64,000 nt of DNA. Origin: Elusimicrobiota bacterium. GTDB lineage: Bacteria; Elusimicrobiota; UBA8919. A program made the translations under genes and the position numbers. Where the stretch lies: NCBI GenBank assembly GCA_041658185.1, contig JBBAAR010000001.1:122400-186399 (forward strand), read 5' to 3'. This document shows, one piece after another, positions 16,334-19,256 of this stretch (positions within the stretch are counted from its first letter, which is position 1; each line of letters starts with the position of its first letter). The notes beneath the pieces were generated by a model. It worked only from the letters and a program-made list of their open reading frames with translations. It did not search any database and was not told the DNA's origin.

Positions 16334-17670
16334 CTGAACCTCGTAGTAAGCACAAACCTTTGTAAATCCTCGTCATATCTGTCAGCCGCAGGCGTTTGGT
16401 ATGACCTTATTGCAAACTCATAACCGAAGTCAATATCAAATTTTTCCATTACATATCCGCTGCCGAAAGAAAAACCGTAAAAAGTCGGAATTGCTTCCTT
16501 TACTATATCGGACATATAATACCAATTATAAACAGTATTGTCCCAATTCTCGTAAAACTCCTGATACTTAAAACCGCACCTGACCGGAATCCAGTCATTC
16601 AGCCACATTTCAAGTCCTAATTTTAACTCGTCGGTTTTTTCATAACCGGCAGGATGCTGTCTTCTGTTATTGGTGTCGGCGCCATTTATCGTCTTCGTTA
16701 CGAATGTCAAGACATTCCAGTTCTGTCTCTCCCAGTCGGCTGCAAAAAGCGTTCTGAACTTGTCCTTGAACCGGTAAGAAAAACCGAACCCGAACTTCTC
16801 CGGATATTTGAGGTCGCCTTTACTGACGGTTTTTGCGGCTGCTGAAACTGCGGTAGTTAAATTGCTGTCGGTCTCGGTCTCGGTAATGTCATATTCAACG
16901 GTTGCGGGTGTTTGGTAAAATCCGCCGCAGGTGTAATTTGACTGATTAAAAACAAGCCCGTATCTTGCACAATGTCCAGCGTATTCGGTGGAAATATCGT
17001 AGGCACTTTTCAAACTCGGCAGATTGTTGCTGTATGAAGTGTATTCGCGCGACGCTAATGGCTTGCCGCCGAGAAGCCCGTAAGAAAATCCTACCTGCAG
17101 TTCGTCAGCAATTTTTAAACCGAATCCGACATCCGTTTTTCTTAAACCACCGGAAGCGACTATATCGGTATCCGAAATTTTCTGCATTGTCTGAGAAAAG
17201 GCTGTCCAGGAAAACCTGTAAGAATAATCCAAAACGGGGGAATTATTTACGCCGAAAATAAGTGTGTTCCGTACAACCGGAACGGCAATACCAAGACCGG
17301 CAAGTTGAAAATAAACATTCTCGTTGGTTATATCAAGTATATTTTCTTTTTCATCAAATAAAACATAAGAAGGAATAACGGACACAATCATTTTATTCGC
17401 GGTGATACCTACTATCGTTGCGGGATTTACCGCGAGGGCAGAGGCATCATTTATAGTTGTAATTCCGGTTGAACCCATACCGACGGAGCGTGCGGAAAAA
17501 CCGGAAACAACATCTCCGAAATTATTAAGTCCGAGTTGTGTGTAGCCGTAAAGAGAAAGTGAACAAAAGTGAACAAAAGTGAACAAAAGTGAACAAAAGT
17601 GAACAAAATTCCACTTTCTTTCACTGTCTTTCCACTTCTTTTCACTGTAGTTCACTGTATCTATCACCAT
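16327..17670 (-). CDS. FadL/PorV-like outer-membrane beta-barrel protein
   Basis: FSARSVGMGSTGITTINDASALAVNPATI motif and a C-terminal ...TTRFRW aromatic terminus. The signal peptide (KKWKDSERKWNFVHFCSLLFTFVHFCSLSLYG) is encoded by repeat A. Confidence 0.6.
   Translation of the reverse strand: MVIDTVNYSEKKWKDSERKWNFVHFCSLLFTFVHFCSLSLYGYTQLGLNNFGDVVSGFSARSVGMGSTGITTINDASALAVNPATIVGITANKMIVSVIPSYVLFDEKENILDITNENVYFQLAGLGIAVPVVRNTLIFGVNNSPVLDYSYRFSWTAFSQTMQKISDTDIVASGGLRKTDVGFGLKIADELQVGFSYGLLGGKPLASREYTSYSNNLPSLKSAYDISTEYAGHCARYGLVFNQSNYTCGGFYQTPATVEYDITETETDSNLTTAVSAAAKTVSKGDLKYPEKFGFGFSYRFKDKFRTLFAADWERQNWNVLTFVTKTINGADTNNRRQHPAGYEKTDELKLGLEMWLNDWIPVRCGFKYQEFYENWDNTVYNWYYMSDIVKEAIPTFYGFSFGSGYVMEKFDIDFGYEFAIRSYQTPAADRYDEDLQRFVLTTRFRW
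17560..17670. repeat. repeat family A copy (4.5 x gtgaacaaaag, then inverted ttcac units)
   Basis: gtgaacaaaagtgaacaaaagtgaacaaaagtgaacaaaagtgaacaaaattccactttctttcactgtctttccacttcttttcactgtagttcactg. Confidence 0.7.
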
Positions 17671-19256
17671 TTTATCTTTCCCGTTAACAAAAATCTTTTT
17701 GTGTAATCGTCAACCGTCTCCAGATTTATGCGGGGATAATCCACATCCTCTGCGACATGAAAATGCCTGTCTTCAAGGGTGTTTCTTCTCATAAAATACT
17801 GGGCTGAAATATCCCAATCAATAATCCAAATCTTAAAACCCGCACCGCCGGAAACAGCCACCGTCTGGGAACCCTTTCTTGAATAATCCGGAAGATACGC
17901 AATCCCGTACCTGAAAATAAAATCCCTTCTTACCTTATGACGGGCGCCGGCCTGCCAGGACAATGTATCTGCCCACCCGAGGTTTGTCCAGACGCCGCCG
18001 GTAGCTTTCACCCGGGCTGCAGACCACTTTGTGTGAATAAAATCAAATGAAAATGTCGGCTCACTGACACCCGGAAATTTGAAGGTCAACCCGTAAGATA
18101 TCGCCGAAGGATATTCGTATTGATATTTGATATTTGTTAAAGTTGCCGCACCTGATATATTGTTTTCCAAGTTTGTTTTTAACTTATCCTCAATCTCTTT
18201 TTCCGGACGATACGAAACGCCTATTTTAGTTCTCGGGGTTACTTCATATGATGCTCCGATAAGATACAGCGAACCGCTTATTGAATGAGTCGTCGTTGTT
18301 GATATGTCCGCGATTATTTGTCCCCTGTTTGAAAGGAGTGTCCCGTAGTCAATCTCCTCAATTTTGCCCTCCGGCTCACCGTATAAATTCCATAATGATA
18401 TGCCTATTGCAAGAGGTTCAACCGGATAATAATTCAACCCTCCGCCGATTGCATAAATCAACCCCCGGGATGTAATTTTATTTGTTTCGGTGCGCTGGGT
18501 TGACGAGTAATTGTTCTCCTCATAAAAATAGTTGAAATCGCTTAGTTCCGTTTCACACACTGCAACCGAAAGTTTGTTTTTTATTACCGGCTGGGAAATC
18601 CCGATACCTGAAAACCGGCCGAAAGAATTCTTGTTCGGCACGGTGGTACCGGCAGAATCATTTCTAACTTTTCTTCCATAAATTGAAAGAAGACCGCCGG
18701 ATAAAACAAACTGTCCGTTGTCAACGGAAATAGTCGCCGGATTTATAAAGACAGATGCCGGCTCATCATTAACAGAAACAGCAGTGCCGCCGGCCGCCGC
18801 AGATGCCGCCGTAAAACCTACCGCATTATCGCCTAACTGTAAAAACGACCCGCGATAGGTGTAGGAGTAAAGAAAGGTTAAAGGTATAAGGTTTAAGGTT
18901 AAAATTAAAATAAGAGCAGAGCGGATTTTTTTGACGGTAGATGTAAAAATACTTATCAGTTCATCTGTTTCTGCAAACAAGTTTTTTACATCTTCTTTTT
19001 GAACTAATCCAGCACCAAGTAATAATCTTAACCAATATCTTGTTTCATTTGCTTCTTTGCGTGAAATGTTTATACTATGAGAAAAATCCTTTCTTGTTAA
19101 TCCGGAATACGCTTCTTCAATATTCGCTCCGACTGATGTACCTGAGCGAAGTATTTGGTCACCCAAAGTTTTGGCTATCTGGTTTTGGGGTAATTTCTGC
19201 ACCAGTTTTATTATTTGTAAAGCGAATTTATAAGTCCGTTCTTTTAAATTCTGCAT
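17664..19256 (-). CDS. in-frame fusion ORF: N-terminal four-helix-bundle protein (23S rRNA IVS protein family) + FadL/PorV-like OM beta-barrel
   Basis: Residues 1-113 (ERTYKFALQII...SGTSVGANIEEAYSG...RKEANETRYWLRLL) match the TIGR02436/PF05635 four-helix-bundle family. The ORF then continues without a stop into a repeat-B-encoded signal peptide (SALILILTLNLIPLTFLYS) and a barrel with NPATI and a C-terminal ...GKIKW. Confidence 0.55.
   Translation of the reverse strand: MQNLKERTYKFALQIIKLVQKLPQNQIAKTLGDQILRSGTSVGANIEEAYSGLTRKDFSHSINISRKEANETRYWLRLLLGAGLVQKEDVKNLFAETDELISIFTSTVKKIRSALILILTLNLIPLTFLYSYTYRGSFLQLGDNAVGFTAASAAAGGTAVSVNDEPASVFINPATISVDNGQFVLSGGLLSIYGRKVRNDSAGTTVPNKNSFGRFSGIGISQPVIKNKLSVAVCETELSDFNYFYEENNYSSTQRTETNKITSRGLIYAIGGGLNYYPVEPLAIGISLWNLYGEPEGKIEEIDYGTLLSNRGQIIADISTTTTHSISGSLYLIGASYEVTPRTKIGVSYRPEKEIEDKLKTNLENNISGAATLTNIKYQYEYPSAISYGLTFKFPGVSEPTFSFDFIHTKWSAARVKATGGVWTNLGWADTLSWQAGARHKVRRDFIFRYGIAYLPDYSRKGSQTVAVSGGAGFKIWIIDWDISAQYFMRRNTLEDRHFHVAEDVDYPRINLETVDDYTKRFLLTGKIKW
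18872..18912. repeat. repeat family B forward arm
   Basis: aaggttaaaggtataaggtttaaggttaaaattaaaataag. Confidence 0.6.
18915..19256 (-). other. four-helix-bundle (IVS-protein family) module nested between the two arms of a family B repeat
   Basis: Occupies exactly the space between the inverted arm (19258-19305) and the forward arm (18872-18912). Confidence 0.6.

What the first reader, a model, noticed from the sequence alone, without database searches (positions are those of the whole stretch)
17664..19256. Apparent in-frame fusion of a cytoplasmic-type four-helix-bundle protein to a secreted OM barrel
The 530-aa ORF has no stop between the four-helix-bundle module (residues 1-113) and the repeat-B-encoded signal peptide plus barrel. 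There is no ATG/GTG/TTG candidate in the signal-peptide region (the Leu codons are TTA/CTT). The other copy, 24332..24700, is a separate gene that ends 1 nt before its barrel. The possibilities are a real fusion with an internal signal-anchor, a programmed frameshift or stop-codon readthrough site, a recent stop-codon loss, or a sequencing error.
Basis: seen in the sequence. Interest (0 to 1): 0.55.

Follow-up and report, generated by a model that had tools for sequence, protein, structure and literature searches.

The report
Helix-bundle gene embedded in signal peptide
A small selfish-looking gene of the kind normally found inside ribosomal-RNA hairpins sits here, without a stop codon, inside the hairpin that encodes an outer-membrane protein's export signal; the same in-frame arrangement recurs and is conserved in related bacteria, which suggests the insert is cut off with the signal peptide.

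Summary
ORF 17664..19256 (-) encodes 530 aa: a PF05635/TIGR02436 four-helix bundle (4HB, residues 1-113), then KKIRS, a 15-18-residue hydrophobic stretch and LYS|YTYRG, then a FadL/BamG-like barrel. There is no stop, and no ATG/GTG/TTG between codons 93 and 206. It is not an error. The organism is an Elusimicrobiota MAG, and the identical protein is held by NCBI, JGI, ENA and GEM. The same stop-less 4HB-to-signal-peptide junction occurs in at least seven other gene contexts. These include a 4HB-TPR fusion kept intact between lineages whose synonymous sites are saturated. Both modules are under purifying selection (dN/dS 0.07-0.24). The closest orthologues of the barrel (74-87% identity) lack the 4HB. 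Every cassette examined lies between the arms of a locus-specific inverted repeat. In this lineage that repeat spans the start codon of secreted-protein genes: one arm lies in the 5' leader or n-region, the other encodes the h-region. This mirrors the architecture of 23S rRNA intervening sequences. Most likely (inferred, not shown) the precursor is membrane-targeted by the internal signal sequence and cleaved by signal peptidase. That would free the barrel and leave a membrane-tethered 4HB. I rate it a new variant of a known kind, of moderate to high interest.

The parts
17664..19256 (-). Fused ORF, 530 aa plus stop: 4HB, then an internal signal sequence, then a FadL/BamG-like barrel
   Evidence: AF2 model
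18918..19256 (-). Stop-less four-helix-bundle cassette (codons 1-113, MQNLKERTY...TSTVKKIRS)
   Evidence: PF05635 and TIGR02436 above cutoff. PDB 2RLD: E 5.7e-20 by sequence, TM 0.92 and rmsd 1.8 A by fold. dN/dS against relatives is 0.07-0.24.
18864..18932 (-). Internal signal-peptide-like segment, codons 109-131: n-region KKIRS (+3), h-region ALILILTLNLIPLTF, c-region LYS, with the presumed cleavage site before Y132
   Evidence: Hydropathy 2.43 over 15 residues. LY[SGC]|YTYRG is conserved in all orthologues. There is no canonical start.
17667..18863 (-). Mature barrel (YTYRGSF...LLTGKIKW)
   Evidence: 74-87% identical to barrel-only orthologues P0001-P0004. dN/dS is 0.15, with no rate acceleration. 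The fold matches FadL, TodX and the FadL-like chain of Bacteroidota BAM complexes.
19257..19299 (-). Upstream (purine-rich) arm of the inverted repeat; supplies AAAGG..AAAAT immediately before the ATG
   Evidence: I6; z 7.7 against shuffles; closes the fold
18863..18905 (-). Downstream (pyrimidine-rich) arm of the inverted repeat; also encodes the h-region
   Evidence: I6
19275..19331 (-). Vestige of the ancestral coupled start: an ATG overlapping the stop of the upstream barrel gene (AAATGGTAG), which now reads MVADALASEVKGINKRYK*
   Evidence: Sequence. Orthologues L003 and L014 start barrel 2 at exactly this ATGGTAA/ATGGTGA overlap.
24332..24700 (-). Second 4HB gene. It belongs to a different subfamily (about 25% identity), has its own stop, and has an AGGAG in its last codons 8 nt before the ATG of the next gene.
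24681..24725 (-). Upstream arm of the inverted repeat round the second 4HB gene (AGAGCGTAGAG family)
   Evidence: I5; z 6.2; fold
24288..24332 (-). Downstream arm of that repeat; overlaps the start and signal peptide (FYALCSML) of gene 22711..24330
   Evidence: I5
20566..20601 (-). 5' arm of the upstream barrel gene 19325..20566. It is a perfect 36-nt complement of 18872-18907, the h-region arm of the fused gene.
   Evidence: I4

Best explanation
The ORF is a genuine in-frame fusion, and it arises from where a small cassette sits. In this Elusimicrobiota lineage, many secreted-protein genes begin with a long imperfect inverted repeat built from short tandem repeats. The purine-rich arm carries the ribosome-binding region and/or a Lys-rich n-region. 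The complementary pyrimidine-rich arm encodes the Leu/Phe/Ile-rich h-region. [quoted passage not shown] It starts at the ATG position used by cassette-free genes that carry the same arm family, and it has no stop codon of its own. It ends in VKKIRS, which takes over the role of the positively charged n-region. Translation from ATG 19256 therefore gives 4HB, then KKIRS, then the h-region, then LYS|YTYRG and the barrel.

Inferred steps: the hydrophobic segment acts as an internal Sec/SRP signal with its N-terminus in the cytoplasm. Signal peptidase I cuts after LYS131. The barrel (from Y132) goes on to the outer membrane as in the unfused orthologues. A 4HB stub of about 131 residues stays tethered to the cytoplasmic face of the inner membrane, or is degraded. 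The insertion is tolerated because it occupies the part of the gene product that is discarded anyway. This parallels the way rRNA intervening sequences are removed by RNase III.

Shown: ORF continuity, the hairpin context, recurrence, conservation, and purifying selection on both halves. Not shown: targeting, cleavage, and how the cassette moves.
For: 1. Recurrence of the same junction (...ILTSIVKK-x-R/K, then an h-region, then LY[SAG] or similar). It occurs in P0008/L002, a syntenic operon where the cassette is fused to a different barrel. It occurs in P0009 and four orthologues (4HB-TPR downstream of motA-motB-motB). It also occurs in P0010, P0132, P0133, P0137 and P0209.
2. The 4HB-TPR fusion is intact in two lineages that are 65% identical, with pS of 0.64-0.79 (saturated). 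L004 has no in-frame ATG/GTG/TTG near the junction; the L009 lineage has only GTG108.
3. dN/dS of the 4HB modules is 0.07-0.24 in all pairs. For the barrel, dN/dS is 0.15. Its dN to outgroups equals that of unfused orthologues: 0.121 against 0.120, and 0.162 against 0.150.
4. The window, L002, L004 and L017 have no canonical in-frame start between the end of the 4HB and the end of the signal peptide, and the window, L004 and L017 have no Shine-Dalgarno-like motif there either.
5. All eleven cassettes examined are flanked by inverted repeats (z 3.1-15) whose sequences differ from locus to locus. MFE folds close those stems round both window copies (z -3.1 each).
6. Cassette-free genes in the window carry the same hairpin across their start codons. 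The left junction AAAGGTTAAAAT-ATG is identical to that of gene 20606..22681.
7. A 129-aa relative (P0012, on 13 contigs) is a 4HB ending in KKCRASLIIILTLNFLLLTCS*. This is the tail-anchored product that cleavage would be expected to leave.
8. The h-region is about 15 residues long, and the conserved L at -3 and S/G/A at -1 fit a cleavable signal rather than a permanent anchor.
Against: No experiment or predictor here shows membrane targeting or cleavage. A folded 113-residue domain ahead of a cleavable bacterial signal peptide is unusual.

Fused ORFs are detected only when they are in frame, so the count of fusions is biased by ascertainment. An attempt to obtain an unbiased sample failed.

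The barrel's closest orthologues lack the cassette. The window's insertion may therefore be too recent for decay to show. The operon also has three further paralogous barrels that could buffer a loss.

In the L009 lineage, a GTG at codon 108 could give an independent start. In P0010 and P0209, the native Met is retained.

The AF2 model has low confidence for residues 119-180.
Confidence: 0.6

Rival explanations
1. Insertional inactivation. A selfish 4HB cassette recently landed in the 5' end of barrel 2 and destroyed its start. The in-frame continuity is a one-in-three accident, the barrel is no longer properly exported, and the loss is buffered by the paralogous barrels in the operon.
For: The closest orthologues (74-87% identity) lack the cassette and start at the ATGGTAA/ATGGTGA overlap with the upstream gene; a dead vestige of that start remains at 19275-19331. 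The operon has several paralogous barrels. Detection of fusions is biased towards in-frame cases.
Against: The barrel is intact. Its dN/dS is 0.15, and its nonsynonymous rate is not accelerated relative to unfused orthologues. The same architecture is retained across deep divergence in the TPR gene, and in the L004 lineage there is no alternative start at all. The junction preserves a textbook n-h-c arrangement.
Confidence: 0.15
2. The two products are made separately from one message. The barrel would be initiated internally at a weak or non-canonical codon (TTG93, ATC111, ATT116/118). Free 4HB would be made by ribosomal or transcriptional slippage on the A7 run at the junction: the +1 frame gives ...KKSALLLF*, 118 aa, the size of stand-alone family members. 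On this view the full fusion is a minor by-product.
For: GTCAAAAAAATCC at the junction contains seven A residues, and runs of six or seven A are present in all related cassettes. The +1 frame terminates after 8 codons (frames). L009 has GTG at codon 108, which would give a canonical MKKSKN-h-region signal.
Against: The window has no Shine-Dalgarno-like motif upstream of any candidate start. TTG93 and GTG108 are not conserved among the loci. The A run is simply the AAA AAA (Lys-Lys) codon choice expected in a genome with 41% G+C. A7 is shorter than the runs known (from general knowledge) to slip efficiently. No local stimulatory structure is evident.
Confidence: 0.15
3. RNA-level removal, as in rRNA intervening sequences. 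RNase III cleaves the long stem formed by the two arms and excises the 4HB-coding loop from the operon transcript.
For: The architecture (a PF05635 ORF in the loop of a stem of about 35-45 bp) is the same as in 23S rRNA IVSs. The Coxiella IVS is excised by RNase III (PMC4990558). Folds close the stems round both copies.
Against: Cleavage in this stem would remove the ribosome-binding region and cut through the h-region codons. It would leave a start-less barrel message and a stop-less 4HB message. This does not explain the maintained reading frame or the purifying selection on the barrel. The stems are A-U rich and imperfect (77% complementary).
Confidence: 0.07
4. Sequencing or assembly artefact that removed a stop codon or introduced an indel at the module boundary.
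For: I could not inspect reads. The window and the ENA contig are identical and may share reads.
Against: The identical protein is held by NCBI, JGI/IMG, ENA and GEM. The same stop-less junction is present in unrelated assemblies of other species. The cassette ends in the same way in L002 and L004, which are 80% and 73% identical to the window cassette at the nucleotide level.
Confidence: 0.02

Closest known systems
23S rRNA intervening sequences carrying a PF05635 ('S23p', four-helix-bundle) ORF, as in Leptospira, Coxiella burnetii helix 45 and CPR rRNA insertions
   Same: The protein family is the same (PF05635/TIGR02436 above cutoff; fold of 2RLD). The ORF lies in the loop of a long stem made of inverted repeats, embedded in a host gene, in a part of the product that the host's own processing enzyme removes. 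ORF-less hairpins of the same kind coexist with ORF-bearing ones. The Coxiella IVS is called a selfish element and the protein family is functionally uncharacterised (PMC4990558, PMC11270868).
   Different: The host here is the 5' end of protein-coding genes for secreted proteins, not rRNA. The ORF is translated in frame with the host. Removal would be at the protein level (signal peptidase) rather than the RNA level (RNase III). The arms also have coding roles. The window contains no rRNA.
Avd accessory protein of diversity-generating retroelements (bAvd, PF22296, NF033474)
   Same: Homologous four-helix bundle. The second window copy gives sub-threshold hits to the bAvd and DivGenRetAVD models. 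PF05635 is described as Avd-like (PMC10053308).
   Different: No reverse transcriptase or template/variable repeat was found in the window or in the related loci. The fused copy gives no Avd hit. Scores are below the cutoffs.
Signal peptides with N-terminal extensions, and internal cleavable signal sequences (for example the extended signal peptide region of autotransporters, or internal signal peptides of viral polyproteins cleaved by signal peptidase). This comparison rests on general knowledge.
   Same: A positively charged n-region, a hydrophobic core and a small-residue cleavage motif lie downstream of extra N-terminal sequence. The upstream part stays on the cytoplasmic side and the downstream part is translocated.
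   Different: The extension here is a complete, independently folding, conserved 113-residue domain from a mobile gene family. I found no description of such an arrangement in bacteria.
FadL/TodX transporters and the FadL-like BamG subunit of Bacteroidota BAM complexes (for the barrel half)
   Same: Pfam Toluene_X is above its cutoff. The best structural matches are 9hiv_F, 9hjm_F, 9n2d_B and FadL/TodX/TbuX (TM 0.52-0.69 normalised to the target).
   Different: The NCBIfam BamG score is 51.9 against a cutoff of 250. Sequence identity is 12-16%. The barrel is one of several tandem paralogues in an operon that also encodes ComEA-like HhH domain proteins and proteins with T9SS-type C-terminal domains.
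Coding repeats in leader peptides of phase-variable outer-membrane proteins (for example the Neisseria opa CTCTT repeats). This comparison rests on general knowledge.
   Same: The signal-peptide h-regions here are encoded by short tandem repeats whose periods (7, 10, 13) are not multiples of three.
   Different: The repeats here are paired with complementary copies upstream to form hairpins, and most are imperfect. No length variants were examined.

Membership tests
PF05635 / TIGR02436 four-helix-bundle protein (23S rRNA IVS protein family) | Profile score above the curated cutoff | tested here: met
   PF05635: 82.7 bits against 33.8. TIGR02436: 97.3 bits against 24.
PF05635 / TIGR02436 four-helix-bundle protein (23S rRNA IVS protein family) | Four-helix-bundle fold | tested here: met
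   The AF2 model has helices at 2-21, 26-51, 55-81 and 87-123 with pLDDT 75-90. Foldseek match to 2RLD: TM 0.92, rmsd 1.8 A, 39% identity. Sequence match to 2RLD: E 5.7e-20.
PF05635 / TIGR02436 four-helix-bundle protein (23S rRNA IVS protein family) | Conserved motif GxxRxxxSxxxNxxE (PMC3936711) | tested here: inconclusive
   The sequence reads Q34-x-x-R37-x-x-x-S41-x-x-x-N45-x-x-E48. R, S, N and E are present and invariant in alignment A1. The leading G is replaced by Q.
rRNA intervening sequence (IVS) element | Located within a 23S or 16S rRNA helix and excised by RNase III | tested here: not met
   There is no rRNA or any other Rfam family in the window. The host is a protein-coding gene. 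Excision could not be tested.
rRNA intervening sequence (IVS) element | ORF enclosed by a long stem formed from flanking inverted repeats | tested here: met
   Arms 18863-18905 / 19257-19299 and 24288-24332 / 24681-24725. Folds. Nine related cassettes show the same arrangement.
DGR accessory protein Avd | Avd-specific profile above cutoff | tested here: not met
   The fused copy gives no hit. The second copy scores 34.7 against 40 for bAvd and 37.2 against 80 for NF033474.
DGR accessory protein Avd | Adjacent reverse transcriptase with template and variable repeats | tested here: not met
   No RT domain was found in the ORFs scanned or in the public gene calls for the neighbourhood.
FadL/TodX outer-membrane transporters (PF03349) | Profile score above cutoff and a FadL-type barrel fold | tested here: met
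   33.5 bits against 29.7. Foldseek E of 1e-15 to 1e-18 to FadL, TodX, TbuX and BAM-associated FadL-like chains.
BamG (NF053685) | Equivalog score above cutoff | tested here: not met
   51.9 bits against 250.
Sec-type cleavable signal peptide | Positively charged n-region, hydrophobic core of 10-20 residues, small residue at -1 and a permissive residue at -3 | tested here: met
   KKIRS (+3); ALILILTLNLIPLTF with mean hydropathy 2.43; L129-Y-S131 before Y132, conserved as LY[SGC]|YTYRG in all orthologues. This was done by inspection; no dedicated predictor was available.
Sec-type cleavable signal peptide | Located at the N-terminus of the precursor | tested here: not met
   The segment starts at residue 109, behind a folded 4HB.
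Sec-type cleavable signal peptide | Actually cleaved by signal peptidase I | not testable with these tools
   Requires proteomics or expression experiments.

The most novel reading that the evidence does not exclude
The hairpin repeats at the starts of secreted-protein genes in these Elusimicrobiota may be replaceable, possibly mobile, palindromic cassettes that encode the translation start and the signal peptide. The 4HB-bearing hairpins would then be their ORF-containing form, the protein-gene counterpart of rRNA intervening sequences. On this reading, the PF05635 family is a selfish element that targets or travels with hairpins and survives by sitting in parts of gene products that host enzymes discard: RNase III for rRNA loops, signal peptidase for leaders. 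Several observations support this and none contradicts it. Orthologous barrels that are 74-87% identical have completely unrelated hairpin-encoded signal peptides. A different 4HB subfamily is inserted at the same barrel-1/barrel-2 junction in L015. Direct duplications of 33-65 nt flank cassettes in L002, L013 and L015. A cassette between motA and motB has kept its h-region-like arm.
Probability: 0.25. Interest if true: 0.85.

Novelty: new variant of a known kind. Interest (0 to 1): 0.62.

Why it matters
The PF05635 'rRNA intervening-sequence protein' family is very widespread: more than 13,000 clusters at 50% identity matched this one subfamily profile. It is related to the Avd protein of diversity-generating retroelements, yet its function and means of spread are unknown.

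This locus shows the same ORF-in-a-hairpin architecture outside rRNA, inside the signal-peptide region of protein-coding genes. The ORF is in frame, under purifying selection, and recurrent. That gives a concrete, testable idea of how such elements stay harmless: they occupy a segment that the host cuts off. It also gives a tractable system for asking what the protein does, because one ORF can be expressed and examined for cleavage and for a membrane-tethered 4HB.

There are two further consequences. Bacterial signal peptidase may resolve natural 'polyprotein-like' precursors. And signal peptides in this lineage are encoded by fast-turning-over palindromic repeats, which matters for gene calling and for predicting exported proteins in uncultured phyla. 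NCBI currently names this outer-membrane barrel 'four helix bundle protein'.

Tried and rejected
1. Scan of species-representative genomes with the cassette alignment. It returned only two distant 4HB genes (38-39% identity) in Bacteroidales and Bdellovibrio, because the patterns were too narrow. It gave no orthologous loci.
2. Word-indexed protein search with the cassette profile. It returned only proteins of about 120 aa, and missed the query itself and the known fusions. The query turned out to be clustered under a 117-aa representative. The exhaustive HMM search was needed to find further fusions.
3. Degenerate DNA pattern for IFTS[TI]VKK in JGI metagenomes. I therefore could not obtain an unbiased count of in-frame against out-of-frame cassettes.
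4. Promoter and terminator scan. Counts were not above the shuffled controls, so it was uninformative.
5. Rfam. Nothing reached threshold.
6. Splitting genes by N-terminal hydropathy to test an association with start-spanning hairpins. The test was not significant (p 0.52). The repeat-encoded signal peptides have modest Kyte-Doolittle scores, and classical transmembrane proteins without hairpins score high. The association is visible gene by gene but was not established statistically.
7. DNA inversion between the arms as a phase switch. Inverting the loop would place no start codon in frame with the h-region arm, so I rejected this by inspection.
8. A link to a DGR. No reverse transcriptase is nearby.

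
Full report
**Observation**

ORF 17664..19256 on the minus strand starts with ATG and encodes 530 aa.
[quoted passage not shown] They also match TIGR02436 'four helix bundle protein' (97.3 bits against 24).
- Residues 153-467 match PF03349 (FadL/TodX) just above its cutoff.
- Between the two lies ...TSTVKKIRS-ALILILTLNLIPLTF-LYS-YTYRGSF....
- There is no stop. There is no in-frame ATG, GTG or TTG between codon 93 and codon 206, and there is no Shine-Dalgarno-like motif.

tblastn finds only these two copies in the window.

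**Is it an artefact?**

The window is identical to ENA contig ERZ27247322:k141_333455 over 21.6 kb. The exact protein is on record as NCBI MFA5778631.1 ('MAG: four helix bundle protein [Elusimicrobiota bacterium]') and in JGI/IMG, ENA and GEM. I cannot tell whether these records come from independent reads. The stronger argument is that the same stop-less junction is found in different species and different genes, as set out below.

**Orthologues and other fusions**

The closest relatives of the barrel (P0001-P0004, 74-87% identity, 418-443 aa) have no 4HB. Their mature parts all begin at LY[SGC]|YTYRG[SA]F, but their signal peptides are unrelated to one another. In L003 and L014 the gene starts at an ATG overlapping the stop of the preceding barrel gene (AAATGGTAA or AAATGGTGA). 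The window still has that ATG at 19331-19329, but it now reads into a stop after 18 codons.

Other Elusimicrobiota carry the same kind of fusion.
- P0008 (519 aa) lies in a syntenic operon, but there the cassette is on the first barrel of the series, not the second.
- P0009 (388 aa) is a 4HB-TPR protein downstream of motA-motB-motB. It has orthologues in four further assemblies.
- P0010 (689 aa) is a PorV-like protein.
- An exhaustive HMM search of 1.84 billion representatives added P0132 and P0137 (PorV-like), P0133 (a FadL-like barrel) and P0209 (a prepilin-type N-terminus).

In all of them the 4HB ends in ...ILTSIVKK. A few basic residues follow, then a hydrophobic stretch of at least 15 residues (mean hydropathy 1.6-2.7), then a plausible cleavage motif.

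**Selection**

The 4HB-TPR fusion is intact in two lineages that are only 65% identical in protein sequence. Their synonymous differences are saturated (pS 0.64 in the 4HB, 0.79 in the TPR part). L004 has no in-frame ATG, GTG or TTG anywhere near the junction. If that is so, the TPR protein in that lineage can only be made through the fusion, and it has stayed conserved.

Pairwise dN/dS of the 4HB modules is 0.07-0.24, for fused and stand-alone copies alike. For the window's barrel, dN/dS against L014 is 0.15. Its nonsynonymous distance to the outgroups equals that of the unfused orthologues: 0.121 against 0.120 to L015, and 0.162 against 0.150 to L003. Neither half looks like a decaying gene. 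The count of fusions itself is biased, because only in-frame cases are called as long ORFs. My attempt to sample cassettes without that bias failed.

**The hairpin context**

Both 4HB genes in the window lie between the arms of long imperfect inverted repeats.
- The fused copy: arms 18863-18905 and 19257-19299 (43 nt, 77% complementary).
- The second copy: arms 24288-24332 and 24681-24725 (45 nt, 73% complementary).

MFE folds of 481-nt segments close these stems (z -3.1 for each). The same holds for all nine other cassettes I examined in related loci (z 3.1-15 against shuffles). The arm sequences differ from locus to locus. The families seen were AAAGGTTAAAGG, AGAGCGTAGAG, AAGTTAAAAT, GAAGTTGAAAT, GATTGGAGATTGG, AAGTCTGAAGTCT and GGGATGAGA.

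The hairpins are not peculiar to 4HB genes. At least seven cassette-free genes for secreted proteins in the window have an inverted repeat spanning the start codon:
- 8052..9155
- 13359..14444
- 16327..17670
- 19325..20566
- 20606..22681
- 27897..29447
- 36593..37582

In each, the downstream arm encodes the h-region. The arms are short tandem repeats of period 7, 10 or 13. The motif AAAGGTTAAAGGT occurs 23 times against 3.3 expected, and it clusters in both orientations round those start codons.

The left junction of the fused gene (AAAGGTTAAAAT-ATG) is the same as in gene 20606..22681. So the 4HB ORF occupies the position of the loop that normally holds the ATG and the n-region.

**The cassette**

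The cassettes of the window, L002, L004 and L006 align over the ORF at 68% mean column identity; pairwise, L002 and L004 are 80% and 73% identical to the window cassette.

The closest relative (P0011 in L013) is 93% identical in amino acids and 89% in nucleotides. It is a stand-alone gene of 117 aa. It shares the sequence up to KKIRS and then runs into a purine-rich arm, which supplies a stop four codons later. The core cassette therefore has no stop of its own, and where translation ends depends on what it abuts.

P0012 (129 aa, on 13 contigs, between motA and motB) ends ...KKCRASLIIILTLNFLLLTCS*. This is a 4HB with a hydrophobic tail, and motB starts on its own just after it.

In L015, a different 4HB subfamily is inserted at the same barrel-1/barrel-2 junction as a separate gene that overlaps the barrel's ATG.

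Direct duplications of hairpin sequence flank the cassettes in three loci: L002 (41 nt, 93%), L015 (65 nt, 91%) and L013 (33 nt, 97%). These are the marks of repeated, independent insertion or recombination events at hairpins. The mechanism is unknown.

**Structure**

An AF2 model built on a 10-sequence alignment gives four helices (2-21, 26-51, 55-81, 87-123; pLDDT 75-90). The last helix runs on into the hydrophobic segment. Residues 119-180 have low confidence. A beta-barrel spans 184-529.

Foldseek matches the barrel to the FadL-like chain of Bacteroidota BAM complexes (9hiv_F, 9hjm_F, 9n2d_B) and to FadL, TodX and TbuX. It matches the bundle to 2RLD (TM 0.92, rmsd 1.8 A, 39% identity). The BamG equivalog model scores far below its cutoff.

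**Mechanism**

Shown:
- a continuous ORF;
- a cassette in a hairpin loop;
- a junction with the n-h-c layout of a Sec signal peptide;
- recurrence of the arrangement;
- conservation of the arrangement;
- purifying selection on both halves.

Inferred:
- The precursor is targeted by the internal hydrophobic segment, with the basic KKIRS and the 4HB staying in the cytoplasm.
- Signal peptidase I cuts after LYS131.
- The barrel proceeds to the outer membrane.
- A stub of about 131 residues (a 4HB with a membrane tail, like P0012) remains or is degraded.

The h-region of about 15 residues and the conserved L at -3 and S/G/A at -1 fit a cleavable signal better than a permanent anchor. The appeal of this model is the parallel with rRNA intervening sequences. 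There, the same protein family sits in a hairpin that RNase III removes from the mature rRNA (PMC4990558). Here it would sit in a leader that signal peptidase removes from the mature protein.

Rivals:
- a recent, tolerated, inactivating insertion;
- separate expression through weak internal starts or slippage on the A7 run at the junction;
- RNase III excision of the loop;
- an assembly error.

These are weighed in the rival list. None explains the conserved TPR fusion as well.

**Comparison and novelty**

The literature held here describes PF05635 as functionally uncharacterised, Avd-like, encoded in rRNA intervening sequences, and scattered in other loci (PMC10053308, PMC3936711, PMC11270868, PMC4990558). 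I found nothing on in-frame fusions to signal peptides, or on hairpin-encoded signal peptides in Elusimicrobia. The library is incomplete, so this is absence of evidence only.

The 4HB is a member of PF05635/TIGR02436. It is not an rRNA IVS (no rRNA). It is not a DGR Avd (no reverse transcriptase; scores below cutoff).

I class the finding as a new variant of a known kind: an IVS-type ORF-in-hairpin element, but in protein-coding leaders and translated in frame.

**Verdict**

The interpretation 'real fusion with internal signal-anchor' is supported over the other options, although processing is untested. Interest is 0.62.

Noticed in passing
window 8052-9155, 13359-14444, 16327-17670, 19325-20566, 20606-22681, 27897-29447, 36593-37582 (5' ends, minus strand): At least seven secreted-protein genes begin with an inverted repeat that spans the start codon. 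The purine-rich arm is the 5' leader or encodes a Lys/Glu/Trp-rich n-region (for example KKWKDSERKW). Its complement encodes the h-region (for example FVHFCSLLFTFVHF). Cytoplasmic genes in the window lack this. The signal peptide is in effect encoded by a palindrome.
   Followed up: partly
window 14322-14376, 17556-17608, 18873-18903, 19266-19301, 22581-22624, 24251-24311, 29347-29387: The hairpin arms are short tandem repeats of period 7, 10 or 13 (for example AAAGTGAACA x5.3 at 100% identity, and TAGAGCA x8.6) lying inside or next to signal-peptide codons. These periods are not multiples of three. Copy-number slippage would therefore shift the frame, which would be a possible phase-variation switch. 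No length variants were examined.
   Followed up: no
window 18872-18907 with 20566-20601, and 19274-19306 with 20491-20523: The inverted repeats are nested and crossed. The 5' arm of barrel gene 19325..20566 is a perfect 36-nt complement of the h-region arm of the fused gene. The h-region arm of 19325..20566 is 97% complementary to the arm upstream of the 4HB. This suggests a recent exchange or gene conversion between the two hairpins. It remains unexplained.
   Followed up: partly
P0001-P0007 compared with window 18864-18932; loci L003 1274-1390, L014 3001-3110, L015 3001-3130: Orthologous barrels that are 50-87% identical, with identical mature N-termini (YTYRG), have unrelated signal peptides. 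Those examined at the DNA level (L003, L014, L015) are each encoded by a different repeat family. The signal peptide of P0004 is nearly identical to that of the next paralogue in the window (16327..17670). The leader hairpins turn over much faster than the genes they head.
   Followed up: partly
L015 2627-3004: A 4HB gene of a different subfamily is inserted at the same barrel-1/barrel-2 junction in a related groundwater genome. It overlaps the barrel's ATG by 4 nt and is flanked by a 65-nt direct duplication of the hairpin. This is an independent insertion at the same site.
   Followed up: yes
L009 3001-3390 (also L010-L012, L103): P0012 is a 129-aa 4HB with a hydrophobic C-terminal tail (LIIILTLNFLLLTCS*), located between motA and motB. 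It was identical on 13 contigs. It may be a tail-anchored 4HB, and it suggests that the h-region-like arm can travel with the cassette.
   Followed up: partly
window 18924-18936 (minus strand GTCAAAAAAATCC): There is a run of seven A residues at the junction between the 4HB and the signal peptide, and runs of six or seven are present in all related cassettes. The +1 frame stops after 8 codons and would give a 118-aa free 4HB. Slippage was not tested.
   Followed up: no
window 19307-19324: A G+C-rich hairpin (CCGACGC-TTTA-GCGTCGG) lies directly after the stop of gene 19325..20566. It is absent from orthologous loci, where the two barrel genes overlap. It has no T-run, so it is not a classical terminator.
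   Followed up: no
window 9979-29447: The operon context is unusual. There are four or five tandem FadL/BamG/PorV-like barrels and three outer-membrane-type proteins with ComEA-like helix-hairpin-helix domains (22711..24330, 20606..22681, 27897..29447). There are also ComEC (9979..12867), an M6 peptidase and a lamin-tail-domain protein with FlgD_ig/T9SS-like C-terminal domains, and SpoVG. This may be a DNA-binding or DNA-uptake surface apparatus in Elusimicrobiota.
   Followed up: no
window 17664-19256; NCBI MFA5778631.1: Public annotation names this outer-membrane barrel precursor 'four helix bundle protein'. In the 90% clustering it is filed under a 117-aa representative. Such fusions are therefore hidden from length-aware homology searches.
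   Followed up: yes
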